Made by a program: the position numbers and the translations under genes
Source: Escherichia coli
GTDB lineage: Bacteria; Pseudomonadota; Gammaproteobacteria; Enterobacterales; Enterobacteriaceae
DNA length: 64,000 nt
Direction: 5' to 3' (one strand)
Assembly (NCBI RefSeq): GCF_044647545.1
Contig: NZ_CP172818.1
Notes under the pieces: generated by a model
The model's database searches: none
The model's input: the letters and a program-made list of their open reading frames with translations, nothing else
Told to the model about the DNA's origin: nothing
Shown: in pieces, positions 7,894 through 64,000 of the stretch
Layout: each line of letters begins with the position of its first letter
Numbering within the stretch: position 1 is the first letter of the stretch

Positions 7894-8297
7894 GAAAACC
7901 CAGTCCTTGCAAAGATGAAGTCGAAATGCGCGATGACACACTACTGAAAGCGGAAGGACGAGTAAAGTTGCAATTAAAAGGAAATGTTATGCATCAGGAG
8001 CAGGGGATTTTTATTATGTTGCATTGTTGTGGTCTCTTCCATGTGCATTAAGCCACTGGCGAGGAGCGCAAATCGCCGATCGTTTCCTGTAGGCCGGGGC
8101 AGCCCACATAATGTGGGCTGAGGGCGCGTTTTACAGGGATCAAACTTACCGGTCGCGCGAGAAGTCCAACTTCAGCCCGAGGTTCATGTGGCTTCCTGGC
8201 CTTCGGGAACCGCTTCAGCGTATTGACGCCACCAAGACCCGTGGTTCGGTAACGTCGAAGATAAAACAACCAGGGCAGATAAAGTGCCAATGCTTAA

Positions 8298-8993
8298 TTA
8301 ATTACGTTTTTCCAGTAGAGTCCGGTAAATCAGACCACCGATAATACCGCCGACAATTGGCACCACCCAGAAGAACCACAATTGTTCTAACGCCCAGCCG
8401 CCCTGGAAGATAGCAACCGCGGTGCTGCGCGCCGGGTTAACAGAAGTGTTAGTCACCGGAATACTGATTAAGTGAATCAGGGTTAAGGCCAGACCAATAG
8501 CGATCGGCGCAAAACCTGCCGGAGCGAATTTGTCGGTTGCGCCGTGGATCACCAGCAGGAAACCTGCACTCAATACCAGTTCAACTACCAGCGCGGAAAG
8601 CATGGAATAACCGCCTGGCGAATGCTCGCCATAACCGTTAGAAGCAAAACCGCTGGCTGCCGCGTCAAAACCTGTTTTACCACTGGCAATTAAATACAGC
8701 AGCGCCGCCGCAACAATACCGCCGACAACCTGGGCAATTACGTAGCCAACGACTTCTTTTGCCGGAAAACGTCCGCCAGCCCATAAACCAATAGTGACCG
8801 CCGGGTTAAAATGACCACCAGAAATATGACCAACAGCGAAGGCCATCGTCAGAACGGTCAGACCGAATGCCAGCGCCACGCCGGCAAAACCAATGCCTAA
8901 TTCCGGGAAGCCTGCGGCCAGTACGGCACTACCACAGCCACCAAAAACAAGCCAGAAAGTACCAAAACATTCAGCTGCTAATTTTCTGAACAT
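8298..8993 (-). CDS. aqpZ: aquaporin Z water channel
   Basis: ORF 8298-8999; two NPA motifs ([14 protein letters not shown]); start at MFRKLAAE for 231 aa. Confidence 0.93.
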
Positions 8994-9339
8994 ATCCACC
9001 TCAATTAAAAATTGACCCTGTGAAAAATATGGTCGTTTTATAGGGTCGTCGTAAAAAAGTGACGACGGAAATAATGCGCGGCTATTTTAAAAACGAAGGC
9101 GAGTCATTCACCAGATAAATAAATCCAGTAAATTTGATTTAGGGCAACAGCGGGTTGCCCCATATAGTCATTTGTCTGATTGACAGTGTAGTGCAAGCAA
9201 AAGATTTAATCCTTTAGGCGTAATAAAAAATAATTTATCATGCTAATTATTTGATTTTGTTGTTTTTGCAGGCTTATCAGCAAGAGGGAGTATAACGCGA
9301 TTATTCGCTCATTTTTCAGACATTTGCCATGCTTAAATG

Positions 9340-9352
9340 TGATGTCATCACG
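9340..9352. promoter_or_regulatory. 13-bp palindrome GTGATG-T-CATCAC about 70 bp upstream of ybjD start; candidate operator
   Basis: Perfect 6-bp inverted arms around a central T, read directly from sequence; function not established. Confidence 0.3.
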
Positions 9353-9418
9353 TATTAGCAAGGCCTTTCCCGTTATACTGCCAGCGTAAAGGATAAGTCA
9401 CATATTTCTGGAGGGGAT

Positions 9419-11077
9419 ATGATTCTTGAGCGCGTTGAAATTGTGGGTTTTCGCGGTATCAACCGTTTGTCGTTGATGCTGGAACAAAACAACGTCCTGA
9501 TTGGGGAGAACGCGTGGGGTAAATCCAGCTTGCTGGACGCCTTAACCCTGCTGCTATCGCCAGAATCAGATCTCTACCATTTTGAGCGCGACGATTTCTG
9601 GTTCCCGCCGGGAGATATCAACGGGCGAGAACATCATCTGCATATTATTTTGACCTTCCGCGAATCGCTGCCAGGCCGACATCGGGTTCGCCGCTATCGA
9701 CCGCTGGAAGCGTGCTGGACGCCATGCACCGATGGCTATCACCGTATTTTTTATCGTCTGGAAGGGGAGAGTGCGGAAGACGGCAGCGTGATGACACTCC
9801 GCAGTTTTCTCGATAAAGACGGACATCCGATTGATGTCGAGGATATTAACGATCAGGCACGCCATCTGGTGCGTTTAATGCCGGTGCTGCGCTTGCGTGA
9901 TGCCCGTTTTATGCGCCGTATTCGTAACGGCACGGTGCCAAATGTCCCTAATGTGGAAGTCACCGCGCGCCAGCTCGATTTCCTCGCCCGTGAGTTATCC
10001 TCACATCCGCAAAATCTCTCTGATGGGCAGATTCGTCAGGGACTTTCCGCAATGGTACAGCTGCTTGAGCATTATTTCTCTGAGCAGGGGGCCGGACAGG
10101 CGCGATATCGTTTAATGCGGCGGCGAGCCAGCAATGAGCAACGAAGTTGGCGCTATCTGGATATCATCAACCGGATGATTGACCGACCTGGAGGGCGCTC
10201 GTATCGGGTTATTTTGCTCGGCCTGTTTGCTACTTTGTTGCAGGCAAAAGGCACATTGCGACTGGATAAAGACGCCCGTCCATTGTTGCTGATCGAAGAT
10301 CCAGAAACCCGTTTACACCCCATTATGCTTTCAGTTGCCTGGCATCTGTTGAATCTTCTGCCATTGCAGCGCATTGCCACCACCAACTCTGGCGAGCTGC
10401 TTTCGTTAACGCCGGTAGAGCATGTTTGCCGACTGGTACGTGAGTCCTCGCGCGTTGCCGCCTGGCGTCTGGGGCCGAGTGGTTTGAGTACCGAAGATAG
10501 CCGACGCATATCCTTTCACATTCGTTTTAACCGTCCGTCATCGCTGTTTGCACGCTGCTGGCTGCTGGTGGAAGGGGAAACGGAAACCTGGGTTATCAAT
10601 GAACTGGCGCGTCAGTGCGGACATCATTTTGATGCTGAAGGGATCAAGGTCATTGAGTTTGCCCAGTCCGGGCTAAAGCCACTGGTTAAATTTGCCCGGC
10701 GAATGGGGATTGAATGGCATGTACTGGTCGATGGCGATGAAGCAGGGAAGAAATATGCCGCTACGGTACGCAGCCTGTTGAATAACGATCGGGAAGCCGA
10801 ACGAGAACATTTAACGGCGTTACCGGCGCTGGATATGGAACATTTTATGTATCGCCAGGGATTTTCCGATGTGTTCCACCGCGTGGCGCAAATCCCGGAA
10901 AATGTACCGATGAATCTGCGCAAAATTATCTCGAAAGCGATCCATCGCTCTTCCAAACCCGATCTTGCCATTGAAGTGGCAATGGAGGCCGGACGTCGTG
11001 GTGTGGACTCCGTACCGACGCTGCTGAAAAAAATGTTCTCACGCGTGCTGTGGCTGGCGCGCGGTCGCGCGGATTAA
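9419..11077 (+). CDS. ybjD: OLD-family ATP-dependent endonuclease-like protein (N-terminal ABC/AAA ATPase, C-terminal Toprim-like region)
   Basis: 552-aa ORF; Walker A GENAWGKSS near N-terminus; acidic Toprim-like motifs LLVEGETE and LVDGDEAGK in C-terminal third. Confidence 0.85.
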   Translation: MILERVEIVGFRGINRLSLMLEQNNVLIGENAWGKSSLLDALTLLLSPESDLYHFERDDFWFPPGDINGREHHLHIILTFRESLPGRHRVRRYRPLEACWTPCTDGYHRIFYRLEGESAEDGSVMTLRSFLDKDGHPIDVEDINDQARHLVRLMPVLRLRDARFMRRIRNGTVPNVPNVEVTARQLDFLARELSSHPQNLSDGQIRQGLSAMVQLLEHYFSEQGAGQARYRLMRRRASNEQRSWRYLDIINRMIDRPGGRSYRVILLGLFATLLQAKGTLRLDKDARPLLLIEDPETRLHPIMLSVAWHLLNLLPLQRIATTNSGELLSLTPVEHVCRLVRESSRVAAWRLGPSGLSTEDSRRISFHIRFNRPSSLFARCWLLVEGETETWVINELARQCGHHFDAEGIKVIEFAQSGLKPLVKFARRMGIEWHVLVDGDEAGKKYAATVRSLLNNDREAEREHLTALPALDMEHFMYRQGFSDVFHRVAQIPENVPMNLRKIISKAIHRSSKPDLAIEVAMEAGRRGVDSVPTLLKKMFSRVLWLARGRAD

Positions 11078-12066
11078 CCGCGAAACATCGTGGCCATTTG
11101 TGGCTGAATAGCGTCGAGCATCTCATAGCGCCGACGGTATTCAGCCCGTTTTTTACTGGCGATTTCGGCAATCTCTTTTCGTGCTATCTGTGCTGGAAGG
11201 CGGTAATGGCGTTCAGCATCACATACGCCGCCAACCGACTCCCAGAACGCGTTGTAATCGGCATGGATCTTGCCTTCTTTATCACGATAACGCAGGCTGC
11301 GGTAAATATGCGTTTCATTGCTGACGGCAATAATCTGCTCTACCTGCAAACGTTGGGCAAACAGACAGGCCGCTTCCATCACGAGGCGTTTGGGAAATAG
11401 CCCGTGGCAGGCTTTCGTCGCATTCTGGATTTCCTGGTGTGGAATTTCCCATTTTGCGCCTTGCAGTCCGCCAATAAACATCGTCCTTTTCCCCTGATAT
11501 TCACACAGGGTAAACGTGAGCTCTGCCAGAGGAATACCTTCGCTGTTGCGGAACAGGATGGTGCTGTCACCTTCTTTATCCATTGAGATCATCATGGTCA
11601 GCTCAAGCGTGAACTGCTCGCCGTTTTTGCCTTCCAGCTTCGCCAGTTGCAGCCCGGGGGTATTCAAATATAAGCTGAATTCTTCCGCCGACATACACCC
11701 GCGGAGTAACGCATAATGGTAACGTAACGCCTCCAGCAATTGCTTACGGCTAAGATTCGCCGCAAGGTAAGGGCGATGTAGACGTACAGGCAGTCGCGGC
11801 TGGCGCGTTAACAACACATTGAGATTAGGCCAGTGGGAAAGTTCGTTCATCCACTCAACGCTTAAACGCGGCATAATCAACGAGCGCAGCAAAAATTTCT
11901 GGCGAAAACTACGGCGATGCCAGAATTTACCCGGCCGACACTGTCCACGTGCCAGACTAAGAAAAAGTGACAGGCTGCTGAGAGATTCAGATGGCGTAAA
12001 GGTCCGTTCAGTTAGCTGCGACATATTCATGAAATCAATGATTATACATGACGTCGATTTCACCAT
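11074..12066 (-). CDS. ybjX: VirK/YbjX-family protein (DUF535)
   Basis: 330-aa ORF; stop codon overlaps ybjD stop by 4 bp (convergent); identity from recalled sequence and position. Confidence 0.75.
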   Translation of the reverse strand: MVKSTSCIIIDFMNMSQLTERTFTPSESLSSLSLFLSLARGQCRPGKFWHRRSFRQKFLLRSLIMPRLSVEWMNELSHWPNLNVLLTRQPRLPVRLHRPYLAANLSRKQLLEALRYHYALLRGCMSAEEFSLYLNTPGLQLAKLEGKNGEQFTLELTMMISMDKEGDSTILFRNSEGIPLAELTFTLCEYQGKRTMFIGGLQGAKWEIPHQEIQNATKACHGLFPKRLVMEAACLFAQRLQVEQIIAVSNETHIYRSLRYRDKEGKIHADYNAFWESVGGVCDAERHYRLPAQIARKEIAEIASKKRAEYRRRYEMLDAIQPQMATMFRG

Positions 12067-12180
12067 TGCGTATCTTAACCAAACATCAATAGTGTGATTA
12101 CTAACGTAAATTTTAGGGTTTTGTTGATATTTCGTTGAAGTTAATGACCCGGATTGGCATATGGAGTATTCAGAATATTT

Positions 12181-13296
12181 ATGAAAAAGCGGAAAACCGT
12201 GAAGAAGCGTTACGTTATTGCGCTGGTGATAGTCATCGCCGGACTGATTACGTTATGGAGAATTCTTAACGCACCCGTTCCGACTTATCAGACGCTGATT
12301 GTGCGCCCCGGTGATTTACAGCAAAGCGTGCTGGCGACCGGAAAGCTGGACGCGCTGCGTAAGGTTGACGTGGGCGCGCAGGTCAGCGGTCAGTTGAAAA
12401 CGCTGTCGGTGGCGATTGGCGATAAAGTAAAAAAAGACCAGCTTTTAGGGGTTATTGATCCTGAACAGGCTGAAAACCAGATCAAGGAGGTGGAAGCAAC
12501 GCTGATGGAGCTACGCGCGCAGCGGCAGCAGGCGGAAGCGGAGCTGAAACTGGCGCGGGTGACGTATTCCCGTCAGCAACGTCTTGCACAAACGCAAGCG
12601 GTTTCACAGCAGGATCTCGATACCGCCGCGACGGAGATGGCTGTGAAACAGGCGCAAATTGGCACCATTGACGCGCAAATCAAGCGCAATCAGGCCTCAC
12701 TCGATACGGCTAAAACCAATCTCGATTACACCCGCATCGTTGCCCCGATGGCCGGGGAAGTCACGCAAATCACCACTCTGCAAGGCCAGACGGTGATTGC
12801 CGCACAACAAGCACCGAACATTCTGACGCTGGCAGATATGAGCACCATGCTGGTAAAAGCGCAGGTTTCTGAAGCGGATGTAATCCACCTGAAGCCGGGG
12901 CAAAAAGCCTGGTTTACGGTGCTTGGCGATCCGCTGACGCGCTATGAGGGGCAAATCAAGGATGTGCTACCGACGCCGGAAAAGGTTAACGACGCTATTT
13001 TCTATTACGCCCGTTTTGAAGTCCCCAACCCCAATGGTTTGCTGCGGCTGGATATGACCGCGCAAGTGCATATTCAGCTCACCGATGTGAAAAATGTGCT
13101 GACGATCCCTCTGTCGGCGTTAGGCGATCCGGTTGGCGATAATCGTTATAAAGTCAAATTGTTGCGTAATGGTGAAACACGCGAGCGTGAAGTGACGATT
13201 GGCGCACGTAACGATACCGATGTTGAGATTGTCAAAGGGCTGGAAGCTGGCGATGAAGTGGTGATTGGTGAGGCCAAACCAGGAGCTGCGCAATGA
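12181..13296 (+). CDS. macA: macrolide efflux periplasmic adaptor (membrane fusion protein)
   Basis: ORF 12154-13296; start at [16 protein letters not shown] (371 aa); coiled-coil-rich MFP sequence; stop overlaps macB start. Confidence 0.88.
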
Positions 13297-15239
13297 CACC
13301 CTTGCTCGAATTAAAGGATATTCGTCGCAGCTATCCTGCCGGTGATGAGCAGGTTGAGGTGCTGAAGGGCATCAGCCTCGATATTTATGCCGGTGAGATG
13401 GTGGCGATTGTCGGCGCTTCAGGTTCCGGTAAATCGACCCTGATGAATATTCTCGGCTGCCTGGATAAGGCCACCAGCGGCACCTATCGCGTCGCCGGTC
13501 AGGATGTTGCCACGCTGGACGCCGATGCGCTGGCGCAACTACGCCGCGAGCATTTCGGCTTTATTTTCCAGCGTTACCATTTGCTTTCGCATTTAACCGC
13601 CGAGCAGAACGTTGAAGTACCCGCCGTCTATGCTGGTCTTGAGCGGAAACAGCGGCTGCTTCGCGCCCAGGAGTTGCTGCAACGACTGGGGCTGGAAGAC
13701 CGTACAGAGTATTATCCGGCACAGCTTTCGGGTGGTCAGCAACAGCGTGTCAGCATCGCGCGGGCATTGATGAACGGCGGTCAGGTAATTCTTGCCGATG
13801 AACCAACCGGCGCACTGGACAGCCATTCTGGCGAAGAGGTGATGGCGATCCTGCATCAGCTGCGCGATCGCGGGCATACGGTGATTATCGTTACCCACGA
13901 TCCGCAGGTCGCTGCTCAGGCCGAGCGGGTGATCGAAATTCGCGACGGCGAAATTGTGAGCAATCCTCCCGCCATTGAAAAAGTGAATGTTGCTGGCGGG
14001 ACGGAACCTGTTGTCAACACGGCGTCTGGCTGGCGGCAGTTTGCCAGCGGTTTTAACGAGGCGCTGACGATGGCATGGCGGGCGCTGGCAGCGAATAAAA
14101 TGCGTACTTTACTGACCATGCTGGGGATTATTATCGGTATTGCGTCGGTGGTTTCAATTGTCGTGGTGGGCGACGCCGCCAAACAAATGGTGCTGGCGGA
14201 TATTCGTTCTATTGGTACGAATACTATTGATGTCTATCCCGGAAAAGATTTTGGCGATGACGATCCGCAATATCAGCAGGCGCTGAAGTACGACGACTTA
14301 ATCGCCATCCAAAAACAACCGTGGGTCGCCTCAGCCACACCTGCCGTCTCGCAAAACCTGCGCCTGCGTTATAACAATGTTGATGTGGCTGCCAGTGCCA
14401 ATGGCGTGAGCGGCGATTATTTTAATGTCTATGGCATGACCTTCAGTGAAGGGAACACCTTTAATCAGGAGCAGCTGAACGGTCGTGCGCAGGTCGTAGT
14501 TCTCGACAGTAATACTCGCCGCCAGCTTTTCCCCCATAAAGCCGATGTGGTTGGCGAGGTGATTCTGGTCGGCAATATGCCCGCCAGAGTCATTGGTGTG
14601 GCGGAAGAAAAACAGTCGATGTTTGGTAGCAGTAAAGTGCTGCGTGTCTGGCTACCTTACAGCACGATGTCCGGGCGAGTTATGGGCCAGTCGTGGCTCA
14701 ACTCCATTACTGTCAGGGTGAAAGAAGGATTTGACAGCGCCGAGGCGGAACAGCAACTCACGCGTTTACTTTCACTGCGCCACGGTAAGAAGGATTTCTT
14801 TACCTGGAACATGGACGGCGTCTTGAAAACCGTTGAAAAGACCACACGTACTTTACAACTGTTTCTGACGCTGGTGGCGGTGATTTCGCTAGTGGTGGGC
14901 GGTATTGGTGTAATGAATATTATGCTGGTGTCAGTGACCGAGCGGACGCGGGAAATTGGCATTCGCATGGCTGTAGGTGCGCGAGCAAGCGATGTTTTGC
15001 AACAGTTCCTGATCGAAGCCGTACTGGTTTGCCTGGTCGGTGGCGCGTTGGGAATAACACTGTCACTGTTAATTGCTTTCACCTTGCAGCTTTTCTTACC
15101 TGGCTGGGAGATTGGTTTTTCACCGTTGGCGCTGCTGCTGGCGTTTCTCTGCTCGACGGTCACCGGGATTTTATTTGGCTGGTTACCCGCACGAAATGCG
15201 GCACGACTGGATCCAGTAGATGCTCTGGCACGAGAGTAA
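13293..15239 (+). CDS. macB: macrolide efflux ABC transporter, fused ATPase-permease
   Basis: 648-aa ORF; Walker [13 protein letters not shown] signature LSGGQQQR, C-terminal FtsX-like permease. Confidence 0.93.
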
Positions 15240-41691: not shown

Positions 41692-42600
41692 TTATTGTGG
41701 TCGGTGACGCTGACTCTGGCAGATCTGACCCGTTTTTACATAATCGAGAAATGCGCGCAAGCCGCAGGACATATACTGGCGGTTTGGATAATAGATCTGG
41801 AAGCCTGGACGCTCTGTGATCCAGTCTTCCAGTACACATTCTAAACGACCGGTATCAAGGTACTCCTTGATCTGTTCATAGAGCAAATACCCGATACCAG
41901 CACCCATCAAAACGGCATCCAGTTCAGCATCAACATCATCCAGAATGATATTTCCTGCGACAGCAATTTCCAGCTCCTTTGCAAATTGCCAGTGGAAAGG
42001 TTTGCCGCTGGGATAACGAAAAACGACACATTGATGATTAAGCAGATCATGAGGATGGCGGGGTTTGCCATATCTTGCAAAGTACTCTGGCGTTGCTGCT
42101 ACACATAATTTCACTGGTGGGCCGATCGCCACGCTGATCATATCTTTTTCGACGATGCCACTAAGTCGAACGCCAGCGTCAAAGCCCTGCTGGACGATAT
42201 CAACAAGAGAGTCGTCAGTTGTGAGCTCGACTTTAATATCAGGATATTCACGTGTGAAACCAACCAGTAAAGGCATTAAAAATATACGTGCAGCTACCCG
42301 GGCGGCATTGATTTTGAGCGTACCTGTCGGTGTCAGACGAAAATCATTCATCTCATCTAACATGATCTGAATTTCGTCGAAAGCTGGGCGCAATCGTTCA
42401 TAGAGATTAGAACCCGCTTCCGTTAACGATACGCTTCGGGTTGTCCGATTGAATAAGCGAATTTTAAGACGTTGTTCCAGTGTTTTAATACTATGGCTAA
42501 TGGCGGACGAGGATAAGCCTAACTCATCGCCCGCTGCACGAAAGCTTTGATTACGGGCCACAGCAAAGAAAGTGGCAAAGTCAGACATATTCATCCGCAT
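41692..42600 (-). CDS. ycaN: LysR-family transcriptional regulator YcaN
   Basis: 302-aa ORF; N-terminal HTH plus LysR substrate-binding domain; divergent from ycaK. Confidence 0.85.
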   Translation of the reverse strand: MRMNMSDFATFFAVARNQSFRAAGDELGLSSSAISHSIKTLEQRLKIRLFNRTTRSVSLTEAGSNLYERLRPAFDEIQIMLDEMNDFRLTPTGTLKINAARVAARIFLMPLLVGFTREYPDIKVELTTDDSLVDIVQQGFDAGVRLSGIVEKDMISVAIGPPVKLCVAATPEYFARYGKPRHPHDLLNHQCVVFRYPSGKPFHWQFAKELEIAVAGNIILDDVDAELDAVLMGAGIGYLLYEQIKEYLDTGRLECVLEDWITERPGFQIYYPNRQYMSCGLRAFLDYVKTGQICQSQRHRPQ

Positions 42601-61399: not shown

Positions 61400-62382
61400 T
61401 CGAAAAAATCTGGTCTGGTGAATCCCCTTTGTGGCGGCTATTGCTGCCACTCTCCTGGTTGTATGGCCTGGTGAGTGGCGCGATCCGTCTTTGCTATAAA
61501 CTAAAACTGAAGCGCGCCTGGCGTGCCCCCGTACCGGTTGTCGTGGTTGGTAATCTCACCGCAGGCGGCAACGGAAAAACCCCGGTCGTTGTCTGGCTGG
61601 TGGAACAGTTGCAACAGCGCGGTATTCGCGTGGGGGTCGTATCGCGGGGATATGGTGGTAAGGCTGAATCTTATCCGCTGTTATTGTCGGCAGATACCAC
61701 CACAGCACAGGCGGGTGATGAACCTGTGTTGATTTATCAACGCACTGATGCGCCTGTTGCGGTTTCTCCCGTGCGTTCTGATGCGATAAAAGCCATTCTG
61801 GCGCAACACCCTGATGTGCAGATCATCGTAACCGACGACGGTTTACAGCATTACCGTCTGGCGCGTGATGTGGAAATTGTCGTTATTGATGGTGTGCGTC
61901 GCTTTGGCAATGGCTGGTGGTTGCCGGCGGGGCCAATGCGTGAGCGAGCGGGGCGCTTAAAGTCGGTTGATGCGGTAATCGTCAACGGTGGTGTCCCCCG
62001 CAGCGGTGAAATCCCCATGCATCTGCTGCCGGGTCAGGCGGTGAATTTACGTACCGGTACGCGTTGTGACGTTACTCAGCTTGAACATGTAGTGGCGATG
62101 GCGGGGATTGGACATCCGCCGCGCTTTTTTGCCACGCTGAAGATGTGCGGCGTACAACCGGAAAAATGTGTACCGCTGGCCGATCATCAGTCTTTGAACC
62201 ATGCGGATGTCAGCGCGTTGGTAAACGCCGGGCAAACGCTGGTAATGACTGAAAAGGATGCGGTTAAATGCCGGGCCTTTGCAGAAGAAAATTGGTGGTA
62301 TTTGCCTGTAGACGCACAGCTTTCAGGTGATGAACCAGCGAAACTGCTTGCGCAACTAACCTCGCTGGCTTCTGGCAACTAG
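61396..62382 (+). CDS. lpxK: tetraacyldisaccharide 4'-kinase
   Basis: 328-aa ORF overlapping msbA stop by 4 bp; P-loop-like [12 protein letters not shown]. Confidence 0.93.

Positions 62383-63702: not shown

Positions 63703-64000
<298 letters not shown>

What the first reader, a model, noticed from the sequence alone, without database searches (positions are those of the whole stretch)
11060..12066. Convergent 4-bp stop-codon overlap of ybjD and ybjX
ybjD (plus) ends at 11077 and ybjX (minus) ends at 11074, so the two convergent genes share their terminal 4 bp and leave no room for a terminator between them. Their transcripts must overlap or one must terminate inside the other gene, which implies transcriptional interference or antisense coupling between a defence-like nuclease and a VirK-like gene of unknown function.
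Basis: seen in the sequence. Interest (0 to 1): 0.25.

Follow-up and report, generated by a model that had tools for sequence, protein, structure and literature searches.

The report
Tail-to-tail ybjD/ybjX stop-codon overlap
Two E. coli genes on opposite strands end on the same four bases (TTAA), so each messenger RNA must finish inside the other gene; this is real and conserved, but it is a common, already catalogued arrangement whose regulatory effect has not been tested.

Summary
ybjD (+, 9419-11077) and ybjX (-, from 11074) share TTAA at 11074-11077, as annotated in K-12 MG1655 (b0876/b0877). All 15 related loci that carry ybjX here keep the 4-bp geometry (Escherichia, Citrobacter, Salmonella, two unclassified Enterobacteriaceae), with TTAA, TTAG or CTAG. 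Klebsiella lacks ybjX at this site.

No convincing intrinsic terminator lies near the junction: hairpins fold no better than shuffles, and the one T-run is not conserved. Published data show a bicyclomycin-sensitive Rho termination region on the minus strand at MG1655 917246 (window 10192). That is about 880 nt past the ybjX stop, antisense to ybjD. The likely source is read-through of the ybjX mRNA, whose Salmonella orthologue is PhoP-activated.

ExcludonFinder (NAR 2025) already lists ybjD-ybjX among 165 convergent excludons of MG1655. Four-bp stop/stop overlaps are the known modal class of convergent overlaps, and 58 convergent overlaps were counted in E. coli.

The inference of transcript overlap is right. 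The inference of regulatory coupling is plausible but untested, and I found no excess sequence constraint to support it. Verdict: real, ordinary, already known, low interest.

The parts
9419..11077 (+). ybjD CDS (552 aa), a class 1 OLD-family ATPase + Toprim protein; stop TAA at 11075-11077
   Evidence: ORF. RefSeq annotation. Pfam DUF2813 (E 2e-160) plus OLD-like TOPRIM. PADLOC GajA/Old models. MicroPubl 2026 (PMC13261556).
11074..12030 (-). ybjX CDS (318 aa from Met13; the K-12 annotation extends to 12066, 330 aa), DUF535/VirK family; stop TAA is the reverse complement of 11074-11076
   Evidence: ORF. PGAP start at 12030; K-12 start. Pfam DUF535 (E 2e-102). Start-codon correction from TSS mapping (PMC2760140).
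11074..11077 (.). TTAA tetramer shared by both CDS (4-bp tail-to-tail overlap); the general form is YTAR
   Evidence: Conserved as TTAA, TTAG or CTAG in 15 of 15 related loci. Tetramer class described in PMC2174442.
12075..12091 (-). PhoP box-like direct repeat TATTGA-N5-GGTTAA of the ybjX promoter, 12 nt upstream of a TGAAAT -10 (12057-12062); mapped TSS at about 12048
   Evidence: Single match in the window, against 0.01 expected by chance. Sequence. The Salmonella ybjX proximal box GTATTGACGATTGGTTAAT and the 12-nt spacing come from PMC3335776. The E. coli TSS comes from PMC2760140. The assignment to E. coli is my inference from sequence similarity.
10574..10873 (-). C>G (C-rich, G-poor) stretch of the untranslated minus-strand RNA, 200-500 nt past the ybjX stop; candidate Rho-loading (rut) region
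   Evidence: C minus G is +8 to +15 per 100 nt, with 18-21 YC dinucleotides per 100 nt. That it acts as a rut site is inference.
10150..10240 (-). Rho-dependent termination region, antisense to ybjD; the published best coordinate MG1655 917246 maps to window 10192. Resolution is coarse because the score uses 800-nt windows.
   Evidence: Adams et al. 2021 Supp. file 2: reads upstream/downstream 299/18 without BCM and 568/545 with BCM; Rho score 15.9; p 6.9e-53. Coordinate mapping.
11133..11155 (+). Weak terminator-like hairpin (5 bp, 8-nt loop) plus T5, 56-78 nt past the ybjD stop and inside ybjX; probably not a dedicated terminator
   Evidence: Pattern scan. Fold energy -10 kcal/mol, z -1.04 against shuffles. 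The T-run is the antisense of the Lys-Lys codons of ybjX and is broken in Citrobacter and RIT691.
11068..11082 (.). Small palindrome CGCGG-ATTAA-CCGCG centred on the two stops; it has no U-tract and occurs only in K-12-like strains
   Evidence: z -1.6 and -1.3. Disrupted in E69, MOD1, E. albertii and Salmonella.

Best explanation
This is an ordinary, evolutionarily stable 4-bp tail-to-tail overlap of two unrelated genes, not a dedicated regulatory device. Shown: both reading frames end on TTAA, there is no intergenic DNA, and the geometry is kept wherever ybjX sits beside ybjD. The only changes seen are those that preserve both stops (YTAR). Shown by published data: minus-strand RNA covers at least 800 nt antisense to the 3' part of ybjD, and Rho stops it near window 10192. 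Inferred: this RNA is the read-through 3' UTR of the ybjX mRNA. That mRNA starts at about 12048 from a promoter with a PhoP box 12 nt upstream of the -10. Once ribosomes release at the ybjX stop, the C-rich untranslated RNA (10574-10873) loads Rho. Inferred: the ybjD mRNA likewise runs into ybjX and ends there by Rho, weak hairpins or polymerase collision, because no convincing intrinsic terminator exists. The pair therefore meets the operational definition of a convergent excludon, as already catalogued. Any mutual repression is probably a modest by-product of this layout, with Rho limiting the antisense RNA, and is not a selected switch.
For: Overlap and annotation. Presence in 5424 of 5426 E. 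coli genomes. Conservation with TTAA, TTAG or CTAG in 15 of 15 ybjX-bearing related loci. The YbjD C-terminus LWLARGRAD* is invariant, and the YbjX tail keeps a constant length. No credible intrinsic terminators: with z between -0.8 and -1.6; the T-run is not conserved. No Rfam element. Rho region at 917246, minus strand (PMC7815308). C>G stretch. No sigma-70-like promoter on the minus strand inside ybjD. ybjX promoter, TSS and PhoP box. ExcludonFinder Table 1 lists ybjD-ybjX. Ordinariness: the 4-bp tetramers are the modal class of convergent overlap, 58 convergent overlaps were counted in E. coli, and only 20% of such genes have a predicted intrinsic terminator (PMC2174442). In this window 2 of 6 convergent junctions have no spacer. 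No extra synonymous constraint in the antisense-covered half of ybjD, 0.447 against 0.461. Klebsiella has ybjD without ybjX.
Against: The origin of the minus-strand RNA inside ybjD is inferred and not mapped; an internal antisense promoter is not excluded. The Rho coordinate has low resolution and comes from one growth condition (LB, OD 0.5). No 3' end for ybjD was found in the supplement files held as text, so its termination mode is unknown. Strict conservation of the overlap could reflect selection on the arrangement, not only on the two protein ends. Transcriptional interference needs no sequence conservation, so the absence of synonymous constraint does not rule out a regulatory role.
Confidence: 0.75

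Rival explanations
1. Functional excludon. PhoP-activated ybjX transcription reads about 0.5-0.9 kb antisense into ybjD. It lowers expression of the potentially cytotoxic OLD-family protein through polymerase collision and/or RNase III cleavage of the RNA duplex, and ybjD transcription acts on ybjX in return. The two genes would then be expressed in a mutually exclusive way.
For: ybjD-ybjX is in the E. coli 'excludome'. Substantial minus-strand RNA lies antisense to ybjD and is restrained by Rho. A conserved PhoP-box promoter architecture sits upstream of ybjX. The arrangement is retained across genera. Chromosomal ybjD gives no phage phenotype, while mild induction from a plasmid does, and higher induction is cytotoxic; this fits a gene that is normally held low.
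Against: No reciprocal-expression, rnc or promoter-mutant data exist for this pair. p19 dsRNA validation was not feasible for convergent excludons. The ExcludonFinder call is nearly automatic for genes whose CDS overlap. ybjD mRNA is detectable in wild type. Klebsiella keeps ybjD without an adjacent ybjX. There is no excess constraint in the overlapped region. 'ybjD' was reported 2.5-fold up, not down, after cathelicidin treatment of UTI89, although the strandedness of that data is unknown.
Confidence: 0.2
2. An intrinsic, possibly bidirectional, terminator embedded in the coding ends stops both transcripts within a few tens of nt, so the transcript overlap is minimal. The candidates are the CGCGG-ATTAA-CCGCG palindrome at the stops and the hairpin + T5 at 11133-11155.
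For: The palindrome folds on both strands (-19.2 and -17.6 kcal/mol in 41-nt contexts). A hairpin followed by T5 lies 56 nt past the ybjD stop. Lillo & Krakauer found predicted intrinsic terminators for 20% of convergently overlapping E. coli genes.
Against: None of the folds is better than shuffled sequence (z -0.8 to -1.6). The palindrome has no U-tract and is broken in other Escherichia and in Salmonella. The T5 run is a Lys-Lys codon pair, replaced by CTTCTT in Citrobacter and RIT691. On the minus strand, 299 reads cover the 800 nt upstream of 917246, deep inside ybjD, and termination there is BCM-sensitive.
Confidence: 0.05
3. Annotation artefact: one of the two stops is not the real end of the protein, so there is no true overlap.
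For: The 5' end of ybjX is indeed mis-annotated in K-12, which shows that annotation of this gene is not flawless.
Against: Stop positions are fixed by the reading frame. Both frames are supported by strong Pfam matches that reach residue 313 of 318 in YbjX, and by PADLOC matches that reach residue 549 of 552 in YbjD. The frames stay open to exactly the same position in every genus examined.
Confidence: 0.01

Closest known systems
4-bp convergent (tail-to-tail) stop-codon overlaps in prokaryotes (tetramers TTAA, CTAA, TTAG, CTAG; Lillo & Krakauer 2007, PMC2174442)
   Same: The geometry and tetramer are exactly those of the class. The overlap lies on opposite strands, no intergenic terminator is possible, and the gene pair is in the species for which that paper counted 58 convergent overlaps.
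   Different: Nothing substantive. This instance is notable only for being conserved across several enterobacterial genera with three of the four possible tetramers.
Convergent excludons (overlapping 3' transcription of neighbouring genes; ExcludonFinder map of E. coli MG1655, PMC12288877)
   Same: ybjD-ybjX is explicitly listed among the 165 convergent excludons. The overlap arises because termination lies inside the neighbour's transcription unit.
   Different: In characterised excludons (for example relBE-ydfV in that paper) opposing expression has been shown. For ybjD-ybjX only the transcript overlap is documented. Here the overlap includes coding sequence, not only UTRs.
Rho-dependent suppression of antisense/read-through transcription in E. 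coli (bicyclomycin-sensitive regions; Adams et al. 2021, PMC7815308)
   Same: The minus-strand RNA antisense to ybjD ends at a BCM-sensitive region (Rho score 15.9) preceded by C-rich, G-poor untranslated RNA.
   Different: The RNA is probably the 3' extension of a bona fide mRNA (ybjX), not a spurious antisense transcript. Its 5' origin has not been mapped.
Bidirectional intrinsic terminators shared by convergent genes
   Same: The context is the same, convergent genes with very close 3' ends.
   Different: There is no GC-rich hairpin flanked by A- and U-tracts at this junction. This defining feature was tested and not met.

Membership tests
4-bp convergent stop-codon overlap class | Two CDS on opposite strands whose 3' ends share exactly 4 bp | tested here: met
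   ybjD ends at 11077 and ybjX at 11074. The same holds in RefSeq K-12 and FDAARGOS_497.
4-bp convergent stop-codon overlap class | The tetramer is TTAA, CTAA, TTAG or CTAG | tested here: met
   TTAA in the window. TTAG in Salmonella and CTAG in RIT691.
4-bp convergent stop-codon overlap class | Both ORFs are genuine protein-coding genes that read to the annotated stop | tested here: met
   Pfam DUF2813 + OLD TOPRIM, and DUF535 covering residues 36-313 of 318. PADLOC GajA match to residue 549 of 552. Frames stay open to the same position in all genera.
Convergent excludon | Transcripts of the two neighbouring genes overlap on opposite strands | not testable with these tools
   No RNA data could be analysed here. 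The literature meets this feature: ExcludonFinder Table 1 and the minus-strand Rho region inside ybjD. Geometry also forces at least 4 nt of overlap.
Convergent excludon | Reciprocal (mutually exclusive) expression of the two genes | not tested
   No data were found for this pair in 16 papers that mention ybjD. One unstranded-or-unknown dataset reports ybjD up after antimicrobial-peptide treatment.
Convergent excludon | RNase III-dependent processing of the RNA duplex | not tested
   p19 dsRNA validation was not feasible for convergent pairs in PMC12288877.
Bidirectional/embedded intrinsic terminator | A stable GC-rich hairpin followed by a U-tract near the 3' ends, conserved in relatives | tested here: not met
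   The scan finds only weak 5-bp stems. Folds have z of -0.8 to -1.6 against shuffles. Neither the T-run nor the palindrome is conserved.
Rho-dependent terminator (minus strand, inside ybjD) | Read-through increases when Rho is inhibited by bicyclomycin | not testable with these tools
   Published: downstream/upstream reads go from 18/299 to 545/568 with BCM, p 6.9e-53.
Rho-dependent terminator (minus strand, inside ybjD) | An untranslated, C-rich, G-poor RNA segment upstream of the termination zone | tested here: met
   C minus G is +8 to +15 per 100 nt over 10574-10873 on the minus-strand RNA. No comparable bias appears on the plus-strand RNA past the ybjD stop.
Multi-gene OLD defence system (Gabija GajA/GajB, retron-OLD) | The OLD gene sits in an operon with its partner (GajB helicase or retron RT/ncRNA) | tested here: not met
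   The neighbours are aqpZ (divergent) and ybjX (convergent, DUF535, no PADLOC hit). No retron or other RNA family was found. This agrees with the class 1 assignment in PMC13261556.

The most novel reading that the evidence does not exclude
ybjX read-through transcription, switched on by PhoP/PhoQ (low Mg2+, antimicrobial peptides, the host environment), acts as a conditional antisense silencer of the OLD-family anti-phage gene ybjD. Envelope or host signals would then tune a potentially self-toxic defence nuclease through a conserved 4-bp tail-to-tail junction, with Rho setting the depth of the antisense transcript.
Probability: 0.15. Interest if true: 0.45.

Novelty: already known. Interest (0 to 1): 0.12.

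Why it matters
As it stands, little. The overlap is in the reference annotation. The class of 4-bp convergent overlaps has been described since the 2000s. The pair is already listed in a published excludon map, and a Rho termination region antisense to ybjD is in a published table.

Its modest value is as a clean, conserved test case. One partner is inducible (ybjX, with a PhoP-type promoter) and the other now has a phenotype (ybjD, or 'oldB', shows anti-phage effects on induction and is cytotoxic at higher levels). A simple experiment could therefore show whether a typical convergent CDS overlap has any regulatory consequence, or is only a compact layout policed by Rho.

Tried and rejected
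1. Intrinsic terminators. The pattern scan and folding of four candidate hairpins gave nothing better than shuffled sequence. Comparative alignment showed the T-run and the palindrome are not conserved. Rejected.

2. Known RNA families in 8000-14000. Rfam found nothing at E<=1.

3. Term-seq 3' ends for ybjD and ybjX. Only one entry, the Rho region, appears in the four Adams et al. supplement files held as text. A coordinate search for 9178xx-9183xx found nothing relevant. Supplements of Dar & Sorek 2018, Nadiras et al. 2018 and ExcludonFinder are not held. The SMRT-Cappable-seq supplements do not mention either gene.

4. A remnant of ybjX in Klebsiella, to decide between loss and insertion. 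tblastn and short blastn found nothing significant. Only 7 nt past the stop are shared between K. michiganensis and RIT691, which is too short to interpret.

5. Excess synonymous constraint in the antisense-covered part of ybjD. None was found.

6. A functional link between YbjD and YbjX as a two-gene defence system. YbjX has no PADLOC hit. Massilia YbjX homologues have no ybjD neighbour. Klebsiella has ybjD without ybjX. Rejected as unsupported.

7. The genome-contig scan returned only 13 loci, because the peptide patterns were strict. Salmonella and Klebsiella were recovered instead through protein searches and contig look-ups.

8. Expression evidence for reciprocity. The only lead is ybjD +1.31 log2 in UTI89 after cathelicidin B22a. 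Its strandedness could not be determined from the text.

I relied on PMC2174442 and on the six convergent junctions in this window.
Full report
**1. What is in the sequence**

The window is Escherichia coli. Bases 9300-12200 are 100% identical to strain FDAARGOS_497, and the region is present in 5424 of 5426 complete E. coli genomes. The + strand reads ...GCG GAT TAA at 11069-11077. The 552-codon ybjD frame (9419-11077) ends with TAA at 11075-11077. The ybjX frame on the minus strand ends with TAA, the reverse complement of 11074-11076.

The two coding sequences therefore share the tetramer TTAA (11074-11077), and there is no intergenic DNA. RefSeq annotates exactly this in FDAARGOS_497. It does the same in K-12 MG1655, where b0876 is 916473..918131 and b0877 is 918128..919120.

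The 12066 start of ybjX is the 330-aa K-12 annotation. PGAP starts at 12030 (318 aa). Mendoza-Vargas et al. 2009 mapped the TSS inside the long ORF and concluded that the protein starts at Met13, as in orthologues (PMC2760140).

**2. What the two genes are**

YbjD matches Pfam DUF2813 (E 2e-160) and the OLD-like TOPRIM domain. It also matches PADLOC GajA and Old models. A 2026 micropublication shows it is a class 1 (stand-alone) OLD protein. Mild induction reduces plaquing of phages Bas18 and Bas20, and higher induction is cytotoxic. The chromosomal knockout has no phage phenotype. The authors note that ybjX is convergent and unlikely to be part of a system with ybjD (PMC13261556).

YbjX is a DUF535/VirK-family protein (E 2e-102) with no hit in PADLOC. 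In Salmonella its promoter is PhoP-activated, with a proximal PhoP box 12 nt upstream of the -10 (PMC3335776). The window carries the corresponding sequence TATTGATGTTTGGTTAA at 12075-12091 on the minus strand. It is a single match against 0.01 expected by chance. It lies 12 nt upstream of TGAAAT (12057-12062), and the mapped E. coli TSS is at about 12048. Assigning PhoP control to the E. coli promoter is my inference from this similarity.

**3. Conservation**

I recovered the junction from the following loci:
- K-12.
- Three E. coli or Escherichia sp. genomes, plus E. albertii, E. whittamii and Escherichia sp. E1V33.
- Three Citrobacter species.
- Two unclassified Enterobacteriaceae, RIT691 and '89'.
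- Two Salmonella enterica genomes that encode the same YbjD protein.

In all 15 loci the two genes are convergent and overlap by exactly 4 bp. The tetramer is TTAA in Escherichia, Citrobacter and '89', TTAG in Salmonella and CTAG in RIT691. Only the outer bases vary (YTAR), which is exactly what preserves both stops.

The YbjD C-terminus ...KMFSRVLWLARGRAD* is almost invariant; Salmonella has V for the first L. The last ~10 residues of YbjX vary in sequence but not in length. YbjD is far better conserved than YbjX: in RIT691 it is 86% identical to E. coli, against 48% for YbjX.

If its stop were lost, ybjD would extend by 9 codons and ybjX by 149 codons. The ybjX stop in particular should therefore be under strong purifying selection.

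Klebsiella has aqpZ-ybjD-macA-macB with no ybjX. This holds for a K. pneumoniae-type locus, for K. michiganensis, and for a record labelled C. koseri with the same layout. A 146-175-bp spacer containing a stem-loop follows ybjD. No remnant of ybjX is detectable there. Whether Klebsiella lost ybjX or the other lineages gained it cannot be decided from these data. Massilia YbjX homologues have no ybjD neighbour.

**4. Where transcription ends**

The consensus scan finds only weak 5-bp stems near the junction. The nearest on the + strand is GACGG-N8-CCGTT followed by T5, at 11133-11155. Four candidates were folded: that hairpin, the CGCGG-ATTAA-CCGCG palindrome centred on the stops (both strands), and a minus-strand stem at 10757-10774. 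All give z-scores of -0.8 to -1.6 against dinucleotide shuffles.

The T5 run is the antisense of two Lys codons of ybjX and becomes CTTCTT in Citrobacter and RIT691. The palindrome is broken in other Escherichia and in Salmonella. Rfam finds nothing in 8000-14000. I therefore reject an embedded intrinsic terminator.

Published data fill the gap for the minus strand. Adams et al. 2021 (eLife, Supp. file 2) list a Rho termination region with best coordinate 917246, minus strand, classified 'antisense ybjD'. DirectRNA-seq reads in the 800-nt windows upstream/downstream are 299/18 without bicyclomycin and 568/545 with it. The Rho score is 15.9 and p is 6.9e-53. The coordinate maps to window 10192, 882 nt past the ybjX stop.

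The minus-strand RNA between the stop and that point contains a 300-nt C>G stretch (10574-10873; C minus G is +8 to +15 per 100 nt). That is the composition expected of a Rho-loading region. The plus-strand RNA past the ybjD stop shows no such bias. No sigma-70-like promoter is predicted on the minus strand inside ybjD. The simplest source of this RNA is read-through of the ybjX mRNA, but that is an inference.

For ybjD, no 3' end is reported in the supplement files held as text. Its termination inside ybjX is required by geometry, but the mechanism is unknown.

**5. What is already known about the arrangement**

ExcludonFinder (Sanmartin et al., NAR 2025) lists ybjD-ybjX among 165 convergent excludons. 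These are pairs detected in at least 50% of 58 MG1655 RNA-seq samples. Three caveats apply:
- Transcript boundaries are set by a 50%-coverage rule, so a pair whose CDS overlap is called almost automatically whenever both genes are expressed.
- The p19 dsRNA validation was not feasible for convergent pairs.
- The paper gives no pair-specific data.

[quoted passage not shown] They counted 58 convergent overlaps in E. coli. Only 23 of the 116 genes involved (20%) had a predicted intrinsic terminator.

The six convergent junctions in this window have the following spacings:

| Junction | Spacing (bp) |
|---|---|
| ybjD/ybjX | -4 |
| ycaM/ycaN | 0 |
| dmsC/ycaC | 34 |
| macB/cspD | 72 |
| ycaK/pflA | 81 |
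| clpA/tRNA-Ser | 406 |

Tight tail-to-tail junctions are thus common.

**6. Does the overlap do anything?**

I looked for indirect signs of function. Synonymous-site divergence in ybjD was measured across eight diverse ybjX-bearing lineages. It is the same in the antisense-covered part (codons 259-552, 0.447) as in the rest (0.461). The last 30 codons are not constrained either (0.486).

This argues against a conserved RNA element. It does not exclude sequence-independent transcriptional interference.

The only expression lead is that 'ybjD' rose 2.5-fold in UTI89 after cathelicidin B22a, together with arnF (PMC6737244). The text does not say whether the data were strand-specific. The rise could be sense ybjD or ybjX read-through, so I could not use it.

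**7. Conclusion**

Both transcripts must end inside the partner gene. For ybjX this happens about 0.5-0.9 kb inside ybjD by Rho. The arrangement is conserved across several enterobacterial genera.

It is nonetheless a member of a well-described, frequent class, it is present in the reference annotation, and it is already listed in a published excludon catalogue. The claim that it 'implies' interference or antisense coupling is a hypothesis without pair-specific evidence. I put a biologically meaningful reciprocal regulation at about 0.15-0.2.

Novelty: already known. Interest: low (0.12).

Noticed in passing
window 41749-41750 (ycaM + ends 41749; ycaN - ends 41750): A second convergent pair in the window abuts with a 0-bp spacer. 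Like ybjD-ybjX, it is listed as a convergent excludon in ExcludonFinder Table 1.
   Followed up: partly
window 12030-12066, minus strand: The K-12 annotation of ybjX (330 aa, start at 12066) is probably 12 codons too long. PGAP and the orthologues start at Met13 (12030), and the mapped TSS (about 12048) lies inside the long ORF. A TGAAAT -10 and a PhoP-box-like repeat sit at the spacing expected for that TSS.
   Followed up: partly
L018 4160-4305, L019 4160-4334, L020 4160-4305: Klebsiella-type loci lack ybjX. ybjD is followed by a 146-175-bp spacer with a 7-8-bp GC-rich stem-loop (CCGCCGT...ACGGCGG, or CTGCCGGG...CCCGGCAG), and then by co-directional macA-macB. L020 is labelled Citrobacter koseri but has the Klebsiella layout and the same coordinates as L018.
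   Followed up: partly
L012, L013 versus the window (ybjD and ybjX orthologues): The evolutionary rates of the two overlapping genes are strikingly unequal. YbjD is 86-87% identical to E. coli where YbjX is only 48% identical. Even so, the junction geometry and the YbjX motif EIASKKRxEYRRRY are kept.
   Followed up: no
window 10627-11073, minus strand: The ybjX reading frame stays open for 149 codons beyond its stop, antisense to the 3' end of ybjD. The ybjD frame would extend only 9 codons past its stop.
   Followed up: no
window 13293-13296 (macA/macB), about 61454-61457 (msbA/lpxK), about 63940-63943 (ycaR/kdsB): Three co-directional 4-bp start/stop overlaps occur in the same window. This illustrates how common 4-bp overlaps are in this genome.
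   Followed up: no
window 9419-11077 (ybjD); literature: 'ybjD' (UTI89_C0880) is reported +1.31 log2 after cathelicidin B22a treatment of E. coli UTI89, together with arnF (PMC6737244). If the library was unstranded, this could be ybjX read-through and not ybjD induction. The text does not say which.
   Followed up: partly
window 11068-11082: In K-12-like strains the two stop codons sit in the loop of a perfect 5-bp palindrome, CGCGG-ATTAA-CCGCG. It is not conserved in other Escherichia lineages or in Salmonella.
   Followed up: yes
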